This document shows, piece after piece, positions 611 to 57,215 of a stretch of 64,000 nt of DNA. The position numbers and the translations under genes were made by a program. This stretch comes from Mobula hypostoma (Eukaryota): NCBI RefSeq assembly GCF_963921235.1, contig NC_086097.1:151282001-151346000 (forward strand), written 5' to 3'. The notes under the pieces are model-generated. The model was not told the DNA's origin. It ran no database searches and saw nothing but the letters and a program-made list of their open reading frames with translations. Within the stretch, counting starts at the first letter, position 1, and the number at the start of each line of letters is the position of its first letter.

Positions 611-1589
611 CAATGATCTAGTCTTAAAGAGCAGGTAGCTATAGTATAACTCCCTTTAGTGAGAGTACCCATAGCTATCTATAACGGATAGGACTTATGA
701 TTTTTGTTTGAGTTTGGAAGATCTTGGTCAGCAAACCCTATAACATCACACTCTGCCTCTACCATGACATTGACAGTGCACTCCATGCATCCACCAATCT
801 CTGGGTAAAAATCCTACCTCTGACCTCCCCCTCTATACTTTCCTCTGAAGCCCCCTAACTGGCTCATATGAAAACTTGGCTTGTTAGCTGACTCTGCTAA
901 CGGCCACTGGACCGCTTATTGTTTCTTAAACAATATACATCTCGGGTCAATATGATTTGGGTCCAATCAAAGAGGAAAATTGGGATGCTTTGATCAATGG
1001 AACCTCTATTTGAGTGAATGTTGTGTAAATACTGCCCCACACAATTATCTATTGGCAAGAAATAATAGATTGTACACTGCATACAATTATAAGGAAAGTG
1101 TATTTACTAATTTCAGCTATATGAACCAGCTCTTAAGAGGAAAAGAAAAAGAGGACCCATTACAACTAATCCAGTCTAAATGTGAATATAGTTAGAGTTC
1201 GTATTGTCCAAGAGCTGTGTGTCACCGTACTTACGCTCTGAATTCTCGTCACCAATCACTGGTAGAACTTCCCATTTTGGAATCCTTCAACTCGCAAGAC
1301 ATTCTTGCAATTGCGTCTTCCCTTTGGATTGAATCCTACGGCTGATTCTCCTGATCTTCTTGTCTCTGTATCTCCTGCCAAAAAGACCATGAACCCCACC
1401 AGCATCCATCGCAAATCTCTCTCCGCACAGCTTTCTCTAGAACCTTCTCCCATTTCACCATTGGCTGACATAACATTCCAAAGGTGAATATCATACCCCC
1501 CTTATCTTCATCTGACACCCAAACATGCTCTCAGACATGCTAACACAAACATTGTTTCTGCAGAAAGCTACTAAATGAAATGAGGTTTG

Positions 1590-2160
1590 CATTCATCTAT
1601 CACGAAGGATAATGGGTGATGATCATCGTCGTCACAAGCCTGGGTGGAAAATATGGAGGTGCCCTTTCGTCAAGATCTCCCTCACCAGTGTAGTCCAAAG
1701 GAAAGCTTATGAAGCAGTACATTTGGCACCAGCTTGGCTGCCGGAAGGATGTTCAATGACGTCCTGCCACGTCAGGGGCTCCACTCTGGATTTGCGGTCT
1801 GGGTTTATTCCCGTCGATTTTGTCACTCCCGAGGCAGATCACAAGGCAGTGGGGCTATTCAGCCATAGTACCAGAGCGTGTCCACACACCGGTGGGCCTG
1901 CGTGCTACGTGTGCAGGGGCCACACTTCCTCCCCGTCCTCTATAGTTCAGCCTGAGTCCGAAAGGAGTTCAGTTTCCGTGCGTTGCCAGCGAGGAGGCAC
2001 TACATAAGGCTTACTGTTGAAGAGGCTGCGTACTGGCAGGGAGAGACTTACACATTCAGCTCTCTGTTTTGCAAGACTGCTAACTAGTGATGGGAGCTGA
2101 AAGTGAGAGTGACAAGTACTTCGCACTCCACTATCACACTCAGTGCATCACAACAACCAT
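1590..2160 (-). mobile_element. Non-autonomous retroposon resembling an RTE-clade 5' UTR
   Basis: GC/CpG-richer ~570 bp block with no LINE ORF. It shares the motif GAATAAACCC..AAAT..AGAG..GGAG..CCT with the element at 22440-23020 and contains an HDV-like ribozyme core. The family assignment is inferred. Confidence 0.55.
1941..2126 (-). ncRNA. HDV-like self-cleaving ribozyme candidate
   Basis: Minus strand in canonical order: P2 UGUAGU, P3 GCC, L3 UCCUCGCU, P3' GGC, P1' AACGCAC, GG (P1.1), P4 hairpin CUGA-AC-UCC-UUUC-GGA-C-UCAG, J4/2 GCUGA, P2' ACUAUA. The P1 5' strand is uncertain (GUGCG at 2126-2122). Confidence 0.7.
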
Positions 2161-2664
2161 TTTGACACAAAATGAAATACCCTACAGCATTCGCAGTAGA
2201 AACCTTAACCAGGGCAATACACCTCCAATATCTTTAAAATTATATCCTTTCATATTAACCACCTTTACCCTGGGAACAAAGCACTTACTGGCCACGCACT
2301 CTATCATTTCTTCTTACTATCTTATACACCTCTATCAAGCAGAGACACTAGGTTTCCAAAAGTTAAATTATTACAACTTTCCACACACCATATACTGTCT
2401 TATACAAATTTGTGCACTCAAATGGCAATATAAGAAATGGTAATTATAATATTAAGCTACAATAAATGTTTGTACAATGCATATATATATGTTTTTGTTT
2501 TATTAATCACTGCTAAAGGACAAAATTGCCCTTTAACTGTGCAAGTATATTCTAATGGTTTTAATAAATTGCTCAAGTTTATGTTTTAGTGGTACAATAA
2601 GGCAAATGATTATCTTCAACCCGGTGAATATTTGGACCAGGACACACAGACTATTTTTATTTAT

Positions 2665-4559: not shown

Positions 4560-6055
4560 CAACACACATCAAAGTTGCTGGTGAATGCAGCAGGCCAAGC
4601 AGCATCTGTAGGAAGAGGTGCAGTCGACGTTTCAGTCCGAGACCCTTCGTCAGGACTAACTGAAGGAAGAGTGAGTAAGGGATTTGAAAGTTGGAGGGGG
4701 AGGGGGAGATCCAAAATGATAGGAGAAGACAGGAGGGGGAGGGATAGAGCTGAGAGCTGGACAGGTGATAGGCAAAAGGGGATACGAGAGGATCATGGGA
4801 CAGGAGGTCCGGGAAGAAAGACGGGGGGGGGGACCCAGAGGATGGGCAAGAGGTATATTCAGAGGGACAGAGGGAGAAAAAGGAGAGTGAGAGAAAGAAA
4901 GTGTGCATAAAAATAAGTAACAGATGGGGTACGAGGGGGAGGTGGGGCTTTAGCGGAAGTTAGAGAAGTCGATGTTCATGCCATCAGGTTGGAGGCTACC
5001 CAGACGGAATATAAGGTGTTGTTCCTTCAACCTGAGTGTGGCTTCATCTTTACAGTAGAGGAGGCCGTGGATAGACATGTCAGAATGGGAATGGGATGTG
5101 GAATTAAAATGTGTGGCCACTGGGAGATCCTGCTTTCTCTGGCGGACAGAGCGTAGATGTTCAGCAAAGCGGTCTCCCAGTCTGCGTCGGGTCTCGCCAA
5201 TATATGAAAGGCCACATCGGGACACAGTATATCACCCCAGTCGACTCACAGGTGAAGTGTTGCCTCACCTGCAAGGACTGTTTGGGGCCCTGAATGGTGG
5301 TAAGGGAGGAAGTGTAAGGGCATGTGTAGCATTTGTTCCGCTTACACGGATAAGTGCCAGGAGGGAGATCAGTGGGGAGGGATGGGGGGGGACGAATGGA
5401 CAAGGGAGTTGTGTAGGGAGCGAATGCAGAGAGAGGGGGGGAGGGAAAGATGTGCTTAGTGGTGGGATCCCGTTGGAGGTGGCGGAAGTTACGGAGAATA
5501 ATATGTTGGACCCAGAGGCCGGTGGGGTGGTAGGTGAGGAGCAAGGGAACCCTATTCCTAGTGGGGTGGCGGGAGGATGGAGTGAGAGCAGATGTACGTG
5601 AAATGGGGGAGATGTGTTTAAGAGCAGAGTTGATAGTGGAGGAAGGGAAGCCCCTTTCTTTAAAAAAGGAAGACATCTCCCTCGTCCTGGAATGAAAAGC
5701 TTCATCCTGAGAGCAGATGCAGCGGAGACGGAGGAATTGCGAGAAGGGGATGACGTTTTTGCAAGAGACAGGGTGAGAAGAGGAATAGTCCAGATAGCTG
5801 TGAGAGTCAGTAGGCTTATAGTAGACATCAGTGGATAAGCTGTCTCCAGAGACAGAGACAGAAAGATCTAGAAAGGGGAGGGAGGTGTCAGAAATGGACC
5901 AGGTAAACTTGAGGGCAGGGTGAAAGTCGGAGGCAAAGTTAATAAAGTCAACGAGTTCTGCATGCGTGCAGGAAGCAACGCCAATGCAGTCGTCGATGTA
6001 GCGAAGGAAAAGTGGGGGACAGATACCAGAATAGGCATGGATTGTTTTCATTTAA
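4560..6055 (-). mobile_element. Penelope-like element, 5'-truncated (RT C-terminus + GIY-YIG endonuclease + terminal repeat)
   Basis: ORF 5161-6051 has LRYIDDC and ends in GVIYCV. Frameshifted ORF 4950-5225 has YIGETRRRLGDRFAEH. A 13-bp TSD ATTTATATACAGT lies at 4547-4559 and 6056-6068. Confidence 0.95.
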
Positions 6056-26686: not shown

Positions 26687-29250
26687 ATAGAACTACAGAA
26701 CCATAGAAACTACAGCACAGAAACAGGCCCTTTGGCCCTTCTTGGCTATGCCGAACCATTTTCTGCCTAGTCCCACGGACCTGCACACGGACCATATCCC
26801 TCCATACACCTCCCATCCATGTATCTGTCCAATTTATTCTTAAATGTTAAAAAAGAACCCGCATTTACCACCTCGTCTGGCAGCTCATTCCATACTCCTA
26901 CCACTCTCTGTGTGAAGAAGCCCCCCACAATGTTCCCTTTAAACTTTTCCCCCCTCACCCTTAACCCATGTCCTCTGGTTTTTTCTCCCCTTGCTGCTGT
27001 GGAAAAAGCCTGCTTGCATTCACTCTATCTATACCCATCATAATTTTATATACCTCTATCAAATCTCCCCTCATTCTTCTACGCTCCAGGGAATAAAGTC
27101 CCAACCTATTCAACCTTTCTCTGTAACTGAGTTTCTCAAGTCCCGGCAACATCCTTGTAAACCTTCTCTGCACTCTTTCAACCTTATTTATATCCTTCCT
27201 GTAATTTGGTGACCAAAACTGAACACAATACTCCAGATTTGGCCTCACCAATGACTTATACAACCTCATCATAACATTCCAGCTTTTATACTCAATACAA
27301 CGAATAATAAAGGCCAATGTACCAAAAGCTCTCTTTACGACCCTATCTACCTGTGACGACACTTTTAGGGAATTTTGTATCTGTATTCCCAGATCCCTCT
27401 GTACCACTGCACTCCTCAGTGCCTTACCATTAACCCTGTATGTTCTACGTTGGTTTGTCCTTCCAACGTGCAATACCTCACACTTGTCAGTATTAAACTC
27501 CATCTGCCATTTTTCAGCCCATTTTTCCAGCTGGTCCAAGTCCCTCTGCAGGCTCTGAAAACCTTCCTCACTGTCTACTACACCTCCAATCTTTGTATCA
27601 TCAGCAAACTTGCTGATCCAATTTACCACATTATCATCCAGATCATTGATATAGATGACAAATAACAATGGACCCAGCACTGATCCCTGTGGCACACCAC
27701 TAGTCACAGGCCTCCACTCCGAGAAGCAATTTTCTACCACCACTCTGTGGCTTCTTCCATCGAGCCAATGTCCAATCCAATTTACCACCTCTCCATGTAT
27801 ACCTAGCGACTGAATTTTCCTAACTAACCTCCCATGCGGGACCTTGTCAAAGGCCTTACTGAAGTCCATGTAGACAATATCCACTGCCTTCCCTTCATCC
27901 ACTTTCCTGGTAACCTCCTCGAAAAATTCCAACAGATTGGTCAAACATGACCTACCACACACAAAGCCATGTTGACTCTCCCTAATAAGCCCCTGTCTAT
28001 CCAAATGCTTGTAGATTCTGTCTCTTAGTACTCTCTCCAATAACTTACCTACTACTGACATTAAACTCACTGGCCTATAATTTCCCGGATTACTTTTCGA
28101 TCCTTTTTTAAACAACGGAACAACATGAGCCACTCTCCAATCCTCCAGCACTTCGCCTGTAGACAGCAACATTTTAAATATTTCTGCCAGGGCCCCCGCA
28201 ATTTCAACACTAGTCTCCTTCAAGGTCCAAGGGAACACCCTGTCAGGTCCCGGGGATTTATCCACTTTAATTTTCCTCAAGACAGCAAGCACCTCTTCCT
28301 TTTCAATCTGTACAGTTGCCATGGTCTCACTACTTGATTCCCTCAATTCCATAGATTTCATGCCAGCTTCGTTAGTAAATACAGACGCAAAAAACCTATT
28401 TAAGATCTCCCCCATTTCCTTTGGTTCCGCACAAAGCCAACCACTCTGATCTTCAAGAGGACCAATTTTATCCCTTACAATCCTTTTGCTCTTAATATAC
28501 TTGTAAAAGCTCTTTGGATTATCCTTCACTTTGACTGCCAAGGCAACCTCATGTCTTCTTTTTGCCCTCCTGATTTCTTTCTTAAGTATTTTCTTGCACT
28601 TCTTATACTCCTCAAGCACCTGATTTACCCCCTGTTTCCTATACATTTCATACAACTCCCTCTTCTTCTTTATCAGAGTTGCAATATCCCTTGAGAACCA
28701 ATGTTCCTTATCCCTATTCAATTTGCCTTTAACCCTGACAGGAACATACAAACTCTGCACTCTCAAAATTTCCCCTTTGAAGGGGAATTTCCCCTTCAAA
28801 ATTTCCCCTTTCCCACCTACCAATCACATCTTTGCCAGAGAACAACCTGTCCCAATCCACGCTTTTCAGATCCTTTCTCATTTCTTCAAATTTGGCCTTC
28901 TTCCAGTTCAGAACCTCAACCCTAGGACCAGATCTATCCTTGTCCATGATCAAATTGAAACTAATGGCGTTATGATCACTGGAACCAAAGTGCTCCCCTA
29001 CACAGACTTCCGTCACTTGTCCTAACTCGTTTCCTAACAGGAGATCCAATATTGCATCCCATCTAGTTGGTCCCTCTATATACTGATTTAGAAAACTTTC
29101 CTGAACACATTTTACAAACTCTAAACCATCTAGACCCCTAACAGTATGGGAGCCCCAATCAATGTATGGAAAATTAAAATCCCCTACCCCCACAACTTTA
29201 TGTTTCCTGCAGTTGTCTGCTATCTCTCTGCAGATTTGCTCTTCCAAGTC
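26687..29250 (-). mobile_element. Young 5'-truncated CR1 LINE (ORF2 APE part + RT)
   Basis: 620-aa ORF 26961-28823 (NYRPVSL, YMDFSKAFDKV, GVPQGSVLGP, FADDTK) and APE ORF 28729-29259 (GDFNFP, SDHN). Possible TSD CAACCC at 26681 and 29251. Confidence 0.95.
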
Positions 29251-48615: not shown

Positions 48616-51062
48616 TAATAGGTGCTGAGGAAGTGGATTTCTTGGAATGTATGCGGGATGGTTTTTTGAACCAACATGTCGAGGAACCAACTAGAGAGCA
48701 GGCTATTCTGGACTGGGTTTTGAGCAATGAGGAAGGGTTAATTAGCGATCTTGTCGTGAGAGGCCCCTTGGGTAAGAGTGACCATAATATGGTGGAATTC
48801 TTCATTAAGATGGAGAGTGACATAGTTAATTCAGAAACAAAGGTTCTGAACTTAAAGAGGGGTAACTTTGAAGGTATGAGACGTGAATTAGCTAAGATAG
48901 ACTGGCAAATGACACTTAAAGGATTGACGGTGGATATGCAATGGCAAGCATTTATAGGTTGCATGGATGAACTACAACAATTGTTCATCCCAGTTTGGCA
49001 AAAGAATAAATCAAGGAAGGTAGTGCACCCGTGACTGACAAGAGAAATTAGGGATAGTATCAATTCCAAAGAAGTAGCATACAAATTAGCCAGAGAAAGT
49101 GGCTCACCTGAGGACTGGGAGAAATTCAGAGTTCAGCAGAGGAGGACAAAGGGCTTAATTAGGAAGGGGAAAAAAGATTATGAGAGAAAACTGGCAGAGA
49201 ACATAAAAACGGACTGTAAAAGCTTTTATAGATATGTAAAAAGGAAAAGACTGGTAAAGACAAATGTAGGTCCCCTGCAGACAGAAACAGGTGAATTGAT
49301 TATGGGGAGCAAGGACATGGCAGACCAATTGAATAATTACTTTGGTTCTGTCTTCACTAAGGAGGACATAAATAATCTTCCAGAAATAGTAAGGGACAGA
49401 GGGTCCAGTGAGATGAAGGAACTGAGTGAAATACATGTTAGTAGGGAAGTGGTGTTAGGTAAATTGAAGGGATTGAAGGCAGATAAATCCCCAGGGCCAG
49501 ATGGTCTGCATCCTAGAGTGCTTAAGGAAGTAGCCCAAGAAATAGTGGATGCATTAGTGATAATTTTTCAAAACTCGTTAGATTCTGGACTAGTTCCTGA
49601 GGATTGGAGGGTGGCTAATGTAACCCCAATTTTTAAAAAAGGAGGGAGAGAGAAACCGGGGAATTATAGACCGGTTAGCCTAACGTCGGTGGTGGGGAAA
49701 CTGCTGGAGTCAGTTATCAAGGATGTGATAACAGCACATTTGGAAAGCGGAGAAATGATCGGACAAAGTCAGCATGGGTTTGTGAAAGGAAAATCATGTC
49801 TGACGAATCTCATAGAATTTTTTGAGGATGTAACTAGTAGAATGGATAGGGGAGAACCAGTGGATGTGGTATATTTGGATTTTCAAAAGGCTTTTGACAA
49901 GGTCCCACACAGGAGATTAGTGTGCAAACTTAAAGCACACGGTATTGGGGGTAAAGTATTGGTGTGGGTGGAGAATTGGTTAGCAGACAGGAAGCAAAGA
50001 GTGGGAATAAACGGGACCTTTTCAGAATGGCAGGCGGTGACTAGTGGGGTACCGCAAGGCTCAGTGCTGGGACCCCAGTTGTTTACAATATATATTAATG
50101 ACTTGGATGAGGGAATTAAATGCAGCATCTCCAAGTTTGCGGATGACACGAAGCTGGGCGGCAGTGCTAGCAGTGAGGAGGATGCTAAGAGGATGCAGGG
50201 TGACTTGGATAGGTTGGGTGAGTGGGCAAACTCATGGCAGATGCAATTTAATGTGGATAAATGTGAAGTTATCCACTTTGGTGGCAAAAATAGGAAAACA
50301 GATTATTATCTGAATGGTGGCCGATTAGGAAAAGGGGAGGTGCAACGAGACCTGGGTGTCATTATACACCAGTCATTGAAAGTGGGCATGCAGGTACAGC
50401 AGGCGGTGAAAAAGGCGAATGGTATGCTGGCATTTATAGCGAGAGGATTCGAGTACAGGAGCAGGGAGGTACTACTGCAGTTGTACAAGGCCTTGGTGAG
50501 ACCACACCTGGAGTATTGTGTGCAGTTTTGGTCCCCTAATCTGAGGAAAGACATCTTTGCCATAGAGGGAGTACAAAGAAGGTTCACCAGATTGATTCCT
50601 GGGATGGCAGGACTTTCATATGAAGAAAGACTGGATGAACTGGGCTTGTACTCGTTGGAATTTAGAAGATTGAGGGGGGATCTGATTGAAACGTATAAGA
50701 TCCTAAAGGGATTGGACAGGCTAGATGCAGGAAGATTGTTCCCGGTGTTGGGGAAGTCCAGAACGAGGGGTCACAGTTTGAGGATAGAGGGGAAGCCTTT
50801 TAGGAGCGAGATTAGGAAAAACTTCTTCACACAGAGAGTGGTGAATCTGTGGAATTCTCTGCCACAGCAAACTGTTGAGGCCAGTTCATTGGCTATGTTT
50901 AAGAGGGAGTTAGATATGGCCCTTGTGGCTACAGGGATCAGGGGGTATGGAGGGAAGGCTGGGGCGGGGTTCTGAGTTGGATGATCAGCCATGATCATAA
51001 TAAATGGCGGTGCAGGCTCGAAGGGCCGAATGGCCTACTCCTGCACCTATTTTCTATGTTTC
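48616..51062 (+). mobile_element. Very young 5'-truncated CR1 LINE
   Basis: ORFs 48633-49034 and 49296-50975 are in the same frame, separated only by one TGA (49032-49034). Full RT motifs (YLDFQKAFDKV, GVPQGSVLGP, FADDTK), a TTTCTATG tail, and ATGTA at both ends. Confidence 0.95.
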
Positions 51063-52159: not shown

Positions 52160-55100
52160 CAGGGAGGAGTAGAGTATCTAATGGGGTGGGGACATCGAGT
52201 TCCCTCGGGAGAAACTCATCCACCATTGGTCCCCACCTGGCACTCAGCTTACACCTGTGGCTCCAATCAGCTGTTTGCTCGTGACAGCTGCCACACTCTG
52301 GTAAACTGCTTCGACGGGCAGGCTAACCCAGATGAGGGCAACCAATGGCTCTTAAACCCTTGGGGAGTTTGGGAGTGGCTAGTCAAGCTAGCAAGGACTG
52401 GACCCAGCAGAATGTGCAGCGGTAGCCACTAGTTTGGCTCAATGGGCAAATAGGTAAATGCAACAAGGCGTTGTGGAGCACTTAGAGCATGATGTGGCAC
52501 CAGGGGTGTCACAGTTCTCCTCTACCTCTGTGGGTGCACTGGCAGTCGTAACCACTGGCCTGCAGTCTGGTGGCTCAGGCCATAGGGTTGTTATCCACTG
52601 ACACAGAGCAGTAATGGCTTTCAGCAGCTACCTGAGTGACCAAGCAGCCCTTTACAGGAGTGCACTGCTCACCTCCATGGTTTGAAGAAGGAGCTAGAAC
52701 AAGTGCTCGAAAGATTGCCTGCTCCGTTCTTTCCCTGACCAGTTTACTGCACCCTATCTTAGCGGTCAAAACACATTAAAGAGAAAATTAAGGACTATTC
52801 CTCTCACCCTTGGAGCGTGGCACACTGTTGGACAGAGTTGATACTGGCAGACCTCAGAGCGAACTGTTCTAATAATTAGCCTGACTTAGCATCATTATCA
52901 CAGCCTTGAGTGAGACCCAGCTTGCAGGAGAGGGCGAACTTTGTGAAAGGGGCATGGGATGTACGTTCATTTGCAGTGGAAGAGCGAATTAAGACCAATA
53001 AGAGGCTGGGGTTGGATTTGCAGTGAAGACAGTGATCTCTGGCAAGCTTGCTGGGCCTCCAAAGGGTGCGAATGACAAGTTGATGACTATGAAACTCCCC
53101 CGTCGCATGGTAGGAAGCATGTCACCATTGTCAGTGCTTATGTCACAACTATAACCAACCCAGCTGATATCAAGGACAAGTTCTATGAAGAACTGCACTC
53201 AGTTATTGTCACTGTTCCCAAGGCCTTATCATCCCTGTTCAACACAGAGTAGACTGACTATCCTCCTGGGATGGGGTCATTGGGAAACATGGTGTTGGCC
53301 ATTCCAGCAGCAACGACTTTCTATTACTCCAGATATGTGCCGAACATGAATTGTTGAACACCAGAAGTGTTTTCCACCTTCCCACCTTTGTGGATGCATC
53401 GTCTGGACAATCAAGAGTGTGAAAACTGCTTGGTCAAACCTTTGAAAGCTGATTGACAACACTGCTATAGAGATTCTGGGACCTGTTGCCAGAAAGCACA
53501 AGGACTTGTCCTAATGAAAACTGTGTCAACATCAAACAACTGCTGGGTGAGAAATATTGTCTCCATAAAGCTTTCCTCAGCAACCCGAAGTCCATCTCAT
53601 AGAAGGATGCCTTCAATAAGATATGAAGGACCATACGACACAAACTGTGTCAGACGCAGGATTTCTGGCTGAGCAATAAAGCTGATGAAATCCAGGTGTA
53701 TGCAGAGAGGTACGCACTAAGAGAAGTCCATTGGACCACATCATCAGGAGCATCCCCTCTCCTTAGTACTGATGGGAACATGCTGATCATTGACAAAAAG
53801 AAAATTAATCGGTGGGCTGAGCTCTTTAACAGTTCTGAATTGTCCTTTGACTATAAATGATGAAGCCAACCCCAAATACATGTCAATGAAGTACTGCATG
53901 TTGCACCAACCTTAGCCGTGACCCACAGAGCAATACATCAACTCTCAGCAGCAAAGCACCTGGATCAGATTTAAACCACCTGAGGCCCACAAGGAAGGTG
54001 GTGCAGTGCTAATAGAAAAAACTCTATTAGCTCTTCCAACTCACGTTGCAGCAAGAGACAATTCTACAGGAATTTAAACTGACAGTCCTGTGACAGCTGT
54101 TGGGAAATAATCTTGCTGTTTATCGCAGGCAAGACCTTTGTCAGGTTTCTTCTCAACTGTCTCACATCACACCTTGACCGGGAACACCTACCGGAGAGTC
54201 AGTGTGGATTCCAGAAAGAGCGTGATGATCATCAAAATGGTGTTTTCTACAAGAGAAACATCAGCAGCAAAAAGCTGACCTGTTCTCCTGCTGTGTTGAT
54301 CATACTAAGGCCTTTGGCACTGTTAGCAGATAGGGTCTCTGCAAGATCATGGCAAAGAATGGATGTCCAAGGAAATTCATCAGCATGGTGCAGCTATTCC
54401 ACATTAGCATGCAAGCTAGAGCTCAGGACAATGGTGAGGCATCCAAGCCTTTCCCTGTCTGAAATGGGACAATTAGGGCTGCATCTTGCCACCAAAACTA
54501 TTCAGTCTGCTGTTTTCTTCCGTGTTGACAGATGCCTTCAGAGACAGCGAGGTAGGCACCAGCATCCGATTCGGCACTGATAGGAAACTGTTCAACCTTA
54601 GGAGGCTCCAAGCAAAAATGAAGGTTATGATAGGCATCATCAGAGTCTTCCTTTTTGCTAATGACTGTGCCCTCAATGCTGAATCAAGAGATGATATGTA
54701 GTGCTGTGCTGACAAATTCTCTCATGCATATGCAACTGTGGTCTTACCATCAACACCAAGAAGACTAAATTAATGCTTCAGCCAGTTCCAGGGAAATCAT
54801 ACATTGAGCCAAACATCACAATCAACTGTCAAAGACTCAATCCAGTGAACGGGTTCACGTATCTTGGCAGCATACTGTCCCGGAACATCGTCATTGATGG
54901 TGAAGTAAACAGCAGGATCACCAAAGTAAATGTAGCCTTCAGCAGACTTTATACCAATGTCTGCAACAGAAGAGGCATAAGTTTACAGATGAAACTGCAG
55001 GTGCATGGGGCCATACTACTCCCCACTCTGCTTTACACCTGTGAAACATGGTCAGGGTGCCAACAGCACGCCATGAAACTGGACCATTTCCACACAGTCT

Positions 55101-57215
55101 GCACAGAAATCTCCTTAATATTAAGTTGCAAGATAGAATCCCTGACGCTGAGGTATCTACCAAAGTTGGCATGCCCAGTATCTAGACCATCCTGATGTAA
55201 TCCCAGTTACACTGGGAAGGTCATGTAGTTCTTATACCAGACCACAGGCTGCTGGACCAGACAATATTCCTGGCAGAGTGCTTAGAGGATGTGCAGACCA
55301 GCTAGCAGAGATTCTCACTGAGATCTTCAATATCTCCCTGAGCAACGCCGTCGTTCCTATGTGCTTCAAGGCCGCCACCGTCGTCCCCGTGCCGAAGAAG
55401 TCTTCAGTGTCCTGCCTCAATGAGTACCATCCCATTGCACTCACATCCATCGTCATGAAGTGTTTCGAGAGGCTCGTCATGAGGCACATCAAGACCCTGC
55501 TGCCCCCCTCACTGGACCCCCTGCAGTTCGCGTACCGTCCCAACCGTTCAACAGACGATGCCATTGCCATCAACCTCCACCTGGCCCTAACCCACCTGGA
55601 CAAAAAAGACACGTATGTTCGAATGCTGTTCATAGACTTCAGTTCAGCATTCAACACAATCATTCCTCAGAAACTGATTGGAAAGCTGAGCCTACTGGGC
55701 TTGAACACCTCCCTCTGAAACTGGATCCTCGGCTTCCTGACTGGGAGACCTCAGTCAGTCTGGATTGGAAACAGCATCTCCAACACCATCACACTGAGCA
55801 CGGGGGCCCCCCAGGGCTGTGTGCTCAGTCCACTGCTGTTTACTCTGCTGACCCACGACTGTGCTGCAACACACAGCTCAAACCACATCATCAAGTTCGC
55901 CGATGACATGGTCGTGGTGGGTCTCATCAGCAAGAACGATGAGTCAGCACACAGAGAGGAGGTGCAGCGGCTAACGGACTGGTTCACAGCCAATACCCCG
56001 TCTCTGAATGTAACCAAAATAAAAGAGATGGTTGTTGACTTCAGGAGGACACAGAGAGACCACTCACCACTGAACATCGACGACTCCAACGTAGAGGTTG
56101 TTAAGAGCACCAAATTTCTTGGTGTTCACCTGGTGAAGAATCTCACCTGGTCCTGCAACACCAGCTCCATAGCAAAGAAAGCCCAGCAGTGTCTCTACTT
56201 TCTGCGAAGGCTGAGAAAAGTCCATCTCCCACCCCCCATCCTCACCACATTCTACAGAGGTTGTATTGAGAGCATACTGAGCAGCTGCATCACTGCCTGG
56301 TTCGGAAATTGCATCATCTCGGATCGCAAGACCCTGCAGCAGATAGTGAGGTCAGCTGAGAAGATCATCGAGGTCTCTCTTCCCGCCATTACAGTCATTT
56401 ACACTGCACGCTGCATCCACAAAGCAAACAGCATTATGAAGGACCCCACGCACCCCTCATATAAATTCTTCTCCCTCCTGCCATCTGGCAGAAGACACCG
56501 AAGCATTCGGGCTCTCACGACCAGACTATGTAACAATTTCTTCCTCCAAGCCATCAGACTCCTCAATACCCAGAGCCTGGACTGAAACCAACCTACTGCC
56601 CTCTACTGTGCCTATTGTCTTGTTTATTATTTATTGTAATGCCTGCACTGTTTTGTGCACTTTACGCAGTTCTGGATAGGTCTGTAGTCTAGTGTAGTTT
56701 TTGTGTTTTACGTAGTTCAGTGTAGTTTTTGTATTGTTTCATGTAGCACCATGGTCCTGAAGAACGTTGTCTCGTTTTTACTGTGTACTGTACCAGCAGT
56801 TTATGGTCGAGATGACAATTAAAAATTGACTTGACTTGACAAATGTCTGCTTTAGGGTAAACTACAAAAATGAAACGGTTCCTTTGGAGGCCGAAGGTAA
56901 CACTTAAGACACCCTGAAAACTTCACTAAAAGCCTTCGGCATCAACAAAGACACATGGGAACTGGTTCTGGTTGAGTGGCGGCCCTCCCTCCATTATAAG
57001 GGTGCAGTGACACATGAGGCAGAAGGGACAATTGCAGCGGAGAGGCATAGGCTACCCCGAGGCAGTGAACCCCAGCTCATTATCTTTTGAACACACTACC
57101 AGAGGACTTTTCGAGCGTGGATTGGCTTCTCCAGCCATCTATGTACCCACAGGCCAGTCCAGCCCCAAATCGCGGATGATTAGCGTGGTTCTCATCGTTG
57201 AACGATCGAACGAAC
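52160..57215 (+). mobile_element. RTE/BovB-type LINE, near full-length, decayed, interrupted by Rex1
   Basis: 5' UTR, APE remnant, RT motifs LPESQCGF, LFNLRRLQAK, FLFANDCAL, FTYLGS and LLYTCETW. The C-terminal part resumes at 56841. Confidence 0.9.
55246..56840 (+). mobile_element. Young 5'-truncated Rex1/Babar LINE
   Basis: ORFs 55278-55718 and 55821-56585 are in frame with one TGA between them. Motifs [40 protein letters not shown]; (TTGAC)3 tail. Confidence 0.95.

What the first reader, a model, noticed from the sequence alone, without database searches (positions are those of the whole stretch)
1941..2126. HDV-like ribozyme core inside an ORF-less retroposon
Seen: the minus strand has P2, P3, L3, P3', P1', GG, P4, J4/2 and P2' in double-pseudoknot order. 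P2 (UGUAGU/ACUAUA) and P3 (GCC/GGC) pair, L3 UCCUCGCU fits the U-Y-C-H-C-G-N-Y pattern, and the CUGA before P2' supplies the catalytic C. Known: HDV-like ribozymes process the 5' ends of R2, RTE and Ingi/L1Tc retrotransposon RNAs. Inference: this ~570-bp element may define its 5' end by self-cleavage and be mobilised by an RTE-type LINE in trans. The P1 5' strand is ambiguous (GUGCG at 2126-2122 or AUGUGU at 2055-2050), so this copy may be impaired.
Basis: partly seen in the sequence, partly recalled or inferred. Interest (0 to 1): 0.75.

Follow-up and report, generated by a model that had tools for sequence, protein, structure and literature searches.

The report
Delta-ribozyme-headed mini-RTE, decayed copy
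This is a worn copy of a 590-630-base jumping element made of the two ends of a rare 4-kb RTE retrotransposon; its first 230 bases are predicted to fold as a hepatitis-delta-type self-cutting RNA that likely trims the element's front end, a known trick, and this copy has lost the cut-site base and is probably dead.

Summary
The core is real, but P1 was misplaced. P2, P3, L3, GG, P4, CUGA and P2' lie at 2004-1941 as described. The P1 5' strand is the element's first bases (2169-2164), about 160 nt upstream, not 2126 or 2055.

The element (2169-1582, 9-bp target duplication) belongs to a family of roughly 2,000 copies. I found its parent, a rare ~4.0-kb RTE LINE starting GUGUGUC, a perfect 7-bp partner of P1'. 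The short form is the LINE's first ~580 nt plus its last ~30.

This copy lacks G1 and has a P1 mismatch, so it is probably dead. Copies show no covariation. Pairing support comes from a sister family.

Two side results:
- The dominant subfamily starts GGUGUC, a P1 one base short.
- In the older subfamily, 44 of 49 tail-selected copies are internal deletions with clustered but varied junctions, suggesting repeated template jumps. Background indels weaken this.

The kind is known (R2 SIDEs, NARTc, bipartite RTEs). The scan noted the sister family before on other DNA. Cleavage is untested.

The parts
2170..2178 (-). 5' copy of the 9-bp target-site duplication (ATTTCATTT)
   Evidence: sequence; found by script
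2164..2169 (-). P1 5' strand remnant UGUGUC = positions 2-7 of the parent's GUGUGUC; G1 is missing
2151..2157 (-). 5' strand of the predicted J1/2-closing helix (P1.2-like), GUUGUUG
   Evidence: consensus fold; sister family pairs with other bases
2020..2150 (-). interior of the ~154-nt J1/2 insert; its fold is not significantly stable (z -0.8 here, -1.4 and -1.5 in the two consensuses)
2013..2019 (-). 3' strand of the P1.2-like helix (CAACAGU here, CAACAGC in the family)
1999..2009 (-). P2 5' strand with extension (10 bp, one bulged A)
1985..1998 (-). P3-L3-P3' (GCC UCCUCGCU GGC), intact, canonical 8-nt loop
1978..1984 (-). P1 3' strand AACGCAC (family GACACAC; two private changes)
1976..1977 (-). 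GG, predicted P1.1 partner of the L3 CC
   Evidence: sequence; established HDV fold
1952..1972 (-). P4 hairpin
   Evidence: fold (-6.0 kcal/mol)
1947..1951 (-). J4/2 G-CUGA; predicted catalytic C at 1950
   Evidence: sequence; C kept in 55 of 61 copies not selected on the core
1937..1946 (-). P2 3' strand ACUAUA with GAGG extension
1633..1936 (-). rest of the RTE-derived 5' region, with four small deletions in this copy; 1835-1772 corresponds to RTE-12_AMi 134-197
   Evidence: PMC5786205 supplement passage, compared by eye
1619..1632 (-). 14-nt junction filler (family ATGATGATCATCAT), absent from the parent at either breakpoint; forms a palindrome with its flanks
   Evidence: (L359)
1588..1618 (-). 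last ~30 nt of the parent LINE: terminal stem-loop, predicted recognition site for the LINE protein
1582..1587 (-). short decayed tail repeat ((CCAA)n in this subfamily)
1573..1581 (-). 3' copy of the target-site duplication

Best explanation
This is a decayed copy of a non-coding element made of the first ~580 and last ~30 bases of a 4-kb RTE LINE, whose first ~230 bases are predicted to fold as an HDV-like ribozyme that likely cuts the element's RNA out of read-through transcripts at its first base. Shown: the two-part structure, the parent, the target duplications, the sharp 5' boundary at the base where P1 starts, and a perfect 7-bp P1 in the parent and the older subfamily (B2). Inferred: a master copy is transcribed from a host promoter; a long J1/2 closed by a 7-bp helix and an extended P2 bring P1 and P2 together, as in drz-Agam-2-1; C220 catalyses cleavage 5' of G1; the LINE protein binds the 3' stem-loop and copies the RNA by target-primed reverse transcription. 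The short forms most likely arose when the reverse transcriptase left the template at the base of the 3' stem-loop and resumed at a hairpin at 575-610. The window copy was probably clipped by one base at insertion and then decayed, so it is likely inactive.
For: 5' boundary: 58 of 90 core-selected copies align to within 3 nt and 68 of 90 to within 10 nt of the consensus start; 14 of 29 copies selected only by the tail start within 10 nt; 120 of 208 over the sets pooled. B2 copies: 15 of 25 start GTGTGTC; L258 has a perfect 13-bp duplication directly before it; LINE copy L408 has a 9-bp duplication directly before it. In the B2 consensus position 1 is the best and only listed 7/7 partner of P1' among positions 1-160. 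Parent: B2 consensus 1-601 and 606-640 match the two ends of LINE copies 3.1-4.6 kb long, with an RVT_1 hit at E 8.8e-15. Sister family A uses different bases in P1 (GGUUCC/GGAACU), P2 (6 of 6 pairs changed on both sides) and P1.2 (2 of 7 changed on both sides), and all pair. Literature: long J1/2 loops of 216-498 nt in active R2 ribozymes (PMC3774820, passages); activation by P1.2 plus extended P2 (PMC4908430, part 1 of 4).
Against: No cleavage assay. No covariation among 61 copies not selected on the core: 0 double changes in P1.2, P2 and P3, 1 in P4; non-CpG substitution rates in the core (0.06-0.115) are like those in J1/2 (0.097); the core is intact in only 4 of 61. No Rfam hit. The dominant subfamily B1 starts GGUGUC (35 of 59), leaving A36 bulged or G1 mispaired (-6.2 against -9.1 kcal/mol). 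The A-B comparison of the ribozyme is aligned by structure, not by sequence. The J1/2 fold is not significant against shuffles.
Confidence: 0.82

Rival explanations
1. The ribozyme works in the LINE and B2, but the dominant subfamily B1 (the window's) no longer self-cleaves. Its sharp 5' end would come from a Pol II start site, with the first G possibly copied from the cap.
For: B1 starts GGUGUC with P1' unchanged, so the cut-site pair is out of register. In the B1 consensus no position in 1-160 reaches 7/7. A mismatch at the cut-site pair goes with very low cleavage in LmexSIDER2A (PMC4035085, passage). Pr77 of L1Tc is both promoter and ribozyme (PMC3383444, start of abstract in the search listing).
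Against: B1 keeps the whole core unchanged in its consensus. G1 can pair with C37 if A36 bulges. About a quarter of R2 P1 stems carry 1-2 mismatches (PMC3774820, passage). First-base retention is alike in B1 (39 of 60) and B2 (16 of 26).
Confidence: 0.25
2. This particular copy still cleaves, using a private P1 strand such as GUGCG at 2126 (or GUGUGAU at 2139), and could cut a host transcript.
For: Its catalytic core is intact, which holds for only 4 of 61 other copies. GUGCG pairs 5 bp in the right register and is the strongest of the three partners tested (-7.1 against -4.5 and -4.7).
Against: Such a partner arises in 12-22% of shuffles. It is buried in a J1/2 hairpin in the predicted fold. 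The family shows no second start peak near +31 (6 of 208 at 26-36). Transcription of this strand is unknown.
Confidence: 0.1
3. The varied B2 junctions are decay of one or a few short masters, or DNA-level deletions after insertion, not repeated reverse-transcriptase jumps.
For: Background indels are frequent: length differs from the mode in 5-13 of about 41 copies in four 40-nt control windows, and in 24 and 32 in two windows near a length polymorphism, against 30 of 44 at the junction. One junction (607/A/29) is shared by 9 of 44 copies, so at least one short master existed. PMC3414825 (passage) favours recombination over template jumps for R2 SIDEs.
Against: 9 of 44 copies keep 39-228 nt of LINE 3' sequence that the common short form lacks, with 5' breaks from 574 to about 800; decay of a short master cannot add these. 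35 of 44 3' breaks lie 27-35 nt from the end, at the base of the terminal stem-loop. Fillers of 4 nt or more are 50% A (48 of 96 bases).
Confidence: 0.4

Closest known systems
R2 SIDEs and R2/R1 hybrid SIDEs of Drosophila (Eickbush and Eickbush 2012, PMC3414825; abstract and passages seen)
   Same: Non-autonomous element made of a 5' HDV-like ribozyme with long J1/2 and the 3' end of a non-LTR element, by internal deletion.
   Different: Dispersed rather than rDNA-specific; RTE-derived; about 2,000 copies; many junction types; cleavage was shown for SIDEs but not here.
Bipartite non-autonomous RTEs (RTE-N2_Lch, RTESINE2, WALLSI3, Bov-A; Kojima 2018, PMC5786205; parts 1-4 of 5 and supplement passages seen)
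   Same: 5' end plus short 3' end of an RTE, no small-RNA head. The paper names the 5' ribozyme as a possible reason such elements keep the LINE's 5' end.
   Different: Here the ribozyme is mapped base by base, and parent, intermediate junction swarm and dominant subfamily are seen in one genome. The paper says such derivatives arise 'for unknown reasons'.
RTE-12_AMi (alligator RTE, 3,904 nt; table 2 and supplement alignment of PMC5786205)
   Same: Its bases 134-197 match family consensus 355-418 at 57 of 64 positions (counted by eye).
   Different: Only about 100 bases of it were visible to me; whether it carries this ribozyme was not testable.
drz-Agam-2-1 (Webb et al. 2016, PMC4908430; part 1 of 4 and passages seen)
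   Same: Large HDV-like ribozyme with a helix-closed J1/2 (P1.2) and an extended P2.
   Different: No sequence comparison made; P2 is 10 bp here against 12 bp; the J1/2 interior here is not significantly structured.
Sister family A in the same genome (earlier scan notes; L135, L159-L188, LINE copies L311 and L320)
   Same: Ribozyme-headed mini-RTE with its own 4-kb parent; about 70% identical over consensus 370-600; same P1.2 position.
   Different: A has a 6-bp P1, an extra hairpin in L3 and a strong 5'-3' helix at its junction; this family has a canonical L3, a 7-bp P1, a longer J1/2 and no significant 5'-3' helix.

Membership tests
HDV-like ribozyme | Order and pairing of P2, P3, L3, P3', GG, P4, J4/2, P2' | tested here: met
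HDV-like ribozyme | 6-7-bp P1 that starts at the cleavage site with a paired G1 | tested here: inconclusive
   Met in the LINE and B2 (7/7); out of register in B1; not met in the window copy, which lacks G1
HDV-like ribozyme | Catalytic C and downstream A in J4/2 (C-N-R-A pattern, recalled) | tested here: met
   CUGA at 1950-1947; C in 55 of 61 copies
HDV-like ribozyme | Covariation of the helices | tested here: inconclusive
   Absent among copies; present between families A and B in P2 and P1.2 when aligned by structure
HDV-like ribozyme | Match to an Rfam HDV/CPEB3 model | tested here: not met
   a 154-nt J1/2 insert is likely to defeat such compact models (inference)
HDV-like ribozyme | Mg2+-dependent self-cleavage | not testable with these tools
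   needs an in vitro assay
Bipartite non-autonomous RTE | 5' part matches the extreme 5' end of a LINE and 3' part its extreme 3' end | tested here: met
Bipartite non-autonomous RTE | Parent belongs to the RTE clade | tested here: met
   ~4 kb, RVT_1, endonuclease-type start and C-terminal Cys/His motif (motif labels recalled), short repeat tail, 89% local identity to RTE-12_AMi (by eye). No tree was built.
Bipartite non-autonomous RTE | Dispersed copies with target duplications and a short repeat tail, no ORF | tested here: met
   (no ORF of 150 aa or more at this place)
Pol III SINE (tRNA/5S/7SL head) | Small-RNA-derived head | tested here: not met
   ARAGORN finds none, Rfam none; the head is LINE 5' sequence
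Family A (L3-hairpin ribozyme mini-RTE of earlier scan notes) | Hairpin inside L3 and strong 5'-3' helix at the junction | tested here: not met
   L3 is 8 nt; the 5'-3' duplex is matched by 14-33% of background stretches here, against 0-1% for five of six arm choices in A

The most novel reading that the evidence does not exclude
This RTE's reverse transcriptase habitually jumps: after copying the 3' stem-loop (~29 nt) it lands beside a 5' hairpin at 575-610, so ribozyme-headed mini-elements are a routine product and outnumber ordinary LINE ends. One such product, with a filler templated from the tail repeat and a P1 shortened by one base, then took over. That would give a mapped mechanism for why RTEs so often spawn two-ended parasites, and a natural HDV-like ribozyme working with a bulge next to the cut site.
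Probability: 0.4. Interest if true: 0.65.

Novelty: new member of a known kind. Interest (0 to 1): 0.42.

Why it matters
As a ribozyme-headed mini-LINE it repeats a known design, now in a family where parent, intermediate forms and the winning subfamily can all be read. Two things become testable. First, whether RTE mini-elements arise by repeated jumps at fixed RNA structures; Kojima 2018 leaves their origin unexplained. Second, whether an HDV-like ribozyme tolerates a P1 one base short at the cut site, since the most numerous subfamily has that form. It also shows a practical gap: Rfam missed the ribozyme in all four copies scanned, and RTE annotations may hide many such long-J1/2 ribozymes.

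Tried and rejected
- Rfam at E up to 5 on the window and on L258, L007 and L408: no ribozyme match over the head. A 17-bit CPEB3 match elsewhere in L408, on the other strand, is below threshold.
- The young RTE family with 1,000-1,100-aa ORFs as parent: no DNA similarity.
- Two exclusion patterns on the B1 tail and palindrome to find LINE ends: only short-element variants (one locus of 18, L155, had no match to the element).
- The family-A LINE as parent: its ends match family A, and this family only at about 70%.
- The idea from earlier notes that the small 3' hairpin joins a 5' arm and a 3' arm: not so here. In B2 the hairpin is wholly 5'-derived, and in B1 it is filler.
- A 5'-3' helix in this family: the homologous arms can pair (5 bp, one double change against family A, by eye) but not above background.
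- A second cleavage site at +31: no start peak.
- Selection on the core among copies: none seen.
- RNA evidence: no RNA holder listed on record; contigs of three guessed-RNA runs cover the element but cannot show ends, strand or level.
- Contig loose ends at the B2 junction did not reveal the LINE.
- Supplement searches for family motifs: none in PMC4844689 or in the first try on PMC5786205.
- Not held and not seen: Ruminski et al. 2011, and Webb and Luptak 2011; what I say of them comes from citing papers. A Repbase or Dfam entry for this family could not be checked.

Full report
Observation. A descriptor that demands P2 and P3 pairing, an L3 pattern, GG and C-N-R-A hits once in the window and 0 times in 60 block-shuffled windows; I wrote it knowing the site. 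P3-L3-P3' reads GCC UCCUCGCU GGC, which I recall as identical to the genomic HDV ribozyme (memory, not tested). Rfam gives no ribozyme hit.

The family. A 301-base query found 1,784 first-look candidates in the 3.48-Gb genome, of which 40 were scored. Thirty aligned copies define a 634-bp consensus with sharp ends; the window copy covers it from 2168 to 1584 at 83%. A core pattern has 114 exact matches and its reversed control 0. Four of 70 copies not selected on the core match it exactly, which implies about 2,000 copies, with wide error. Runs under seven coded organism labels share 47-69% of the sampled words. One of them, from another label than the best holder, was laid on the whole element and covers the same span. 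The window copy has a 9-bp target duplication at 2178-2170 and 1581-1573.

Where P1 is. The family's P1' is GACACAC. I fetched 90 of the 114 core matches; 58 align to within 3 nt of the consensus start and 68 to within 10 nt. Of 29 copies picked only by their tail, 14 start within 10 nt. Two subfamilies appeared. B2 starts GTGTGTC in 15 of 25 copies; B1 starts GGTGTC in 35 of 59, xTGTGTC in 5 and GTGTGTC in 2 (subfamily calls by regular expression, with some errors seen). GUGUGUC pairs 7 of 7 with P1' and is the best partner in positions 1-160. L258 has a perfect 13-bp duplication directly before it. So the predicted cut site and the element boundary coincide, with a 154-nt J1/2 between P1 and P2. 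That loop is closed by a predicted 7-bp helix, and P2 extends to 10 bp, the arrangement that speeds drz-Agam-2-1 (PMC4908430, part 1 of 4). The loop's overall fold is not significant (z -1.4 and -1.5).

This copy. It begins UGUGUC at 2169, lacks G1 and has a C.A mismatch at the far end of P1 (-4.5 kcal/mol against -9.1 for B2). The copy is 0.103 diverged from the B1 consensus; the B1 median is 0.082 (n=80), B2 0.105-0.109 (n=10 and 41), LINE heads 0.10-0.13 (n=7). It is probably an early B1 insertion, clipped by one base, and dead.

Covariation. Among 61 copies not selected on the core there is 1 double change in four helices, the core mutates like its surroundings, and 4 of 61 keep an intact core. 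This is neutral decay; it neither supports nor refutes the fold, and it argues against use by the host. Support comes from sister family A, whose P1, P1.2 and P2 use other bases and still pair. That comparison is aligned by structure.

The parent. The young RTE family and the family-A LINE are not the parent. A B2 tail pattern gave 52 matches; among the 49 fetched, L370 carries an RTE-type ORF end before the tail. Searching with it gave 71 candidates. Five of 20 fetched regions hold the 5' head from its start, and four of these also the tail; spans are 3.1-4.6 kb, 4,042 bp for L411. L408 starts GTGTGTC right after a 9-bp duplication. An RT domain is present. Family bases 355-418 match RTE-12_AMi 134-197 at 57 of 64 positions (PMC5786205 supplement, counted by eye). 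B1 is LINE 1-580, a 14-nt filler and the last ~32 nt. The filler looks like the (ATC)n tail and its complement, which suggests templating during a jump (inference).

Junction swarm. Of 49 tail-selected loci, 44 were called internal deletions, with 35 distinct junction calls; one of the 44 (L359) is B1-like. 5' breaks: 12 at 574-580, 28 at 590-609, 4 beyond. 3' breaks: 35 at 27-35 nt from the end, 6 at 39-50, 3 beyond. These sites flank a predicted 5' hairpin (584-600) and the base of the terminal stem-loop. Nine copies keep LINE 3' bases that the common form lacks; one of these calls (L346) is weak. Against: one junction is shared by 9 copies, and control windows show many indels (5-13 of about 41 in four windows, 24 and 32 in two near a length polymorphism, against 30 of 44 at the junction). 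In one search, 7 loci failed or had no tail and were left out; none was in the tail-selected 49. Target duplications were not checked for these copies. I put repeated reverse-transcriptase jumps at about even odds.

The 5'-3' helix of earlier notes. In family A the duplex is strong (0-3 of 296 background stretches match it for five of six arm choices, 42 for the sixth). In this family it is not (32-76 of 227). It is therefore not a general explanation.

Comparison with print. HDV-like ribozymes at RTE, R2 and L1Tc 5' ends and their non-autonomous derivatives are published (PMC6765202, PMC3774820, PMC3414825, PMC4035085: passages; PMC5786205: parts 1-4 of 5). Searches for ribozyme+RTE+shark+retrotransposon ('shark' was only my guess at the kind of host), RTE+internal deletion+template jump+non-LTR, bipartite+RTE+nonautonomous+template switch and RTE+internally deleted+non-autonomous+breakpoint listed no title or abstract start about this family or a junction swarm. 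The library lacks most subscription papers and Repbase, so this is weak.

Verdict. A real feature and a correct general reading, with P1 relocated. It is a new member of a known kind, and this copy is likely dead. The swarm and the short P1 of B1 are the parts worth an experiment. Interest 0.42.

Noticed in passing
L135:2207-2800; L159-L188; LINE copies L311, L320, L003:1-920: Sister family A: ribozyme-headed mini-RTE (about 600 bp) and its 4.0-kb parent, with a hairpin in L3 and a strong 5'-3' helix.
   Followed up: partly
L324:410-980, L415 (minus, 4785-4540), L420:2790-3300, L416:1-170: A third, more diverged ribozyme-headed mini-RTE related to family A (73-77%), with its own 3' tail.
   Followed up: no
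L262:about 560-810: tRNA-like head followed by the family-A RTE 5' segment and tail: a SINE carrying the shared middle region.
   Followed up: no
L007:1195-1340 (consensus about 430-575): Contig depth is several-fold higher here than in the rest of the element, suggesting a further family sharing this segment.
   Followed up: no
L091-L096: Young RTE family with many open frames of 995-1,116 aa, possibly recently active; unrelated in DNA to this element.
   Followed up: partly
L234, L359: Apparent intermediates: B1 palindrome with the B2-type start (L234) or with an ATC tail start (L359).
   Followed up: partly
L262 (element start, consensus 166): A B2 copy begins at P2, directly after GT-rich flank that could stand in as a P1 5' strand.
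   Followed up: no
consensus about 222 versus RTE-12_AMi position 1: The offset (355 versus 134) places the start of RTE-12_AMi near the end of the ribozyme, so that entry may lack its ribozyme.
   Followed up: no
window 26961-28823, 49035-50975, 54083-55195, 5161-6051: Other retroelement ORFs in the window: two long CR1-like frames (620 and 646 aa), a broken RTE, a Penelope-like piece (labels by recall of motifs).
   Followed up: no
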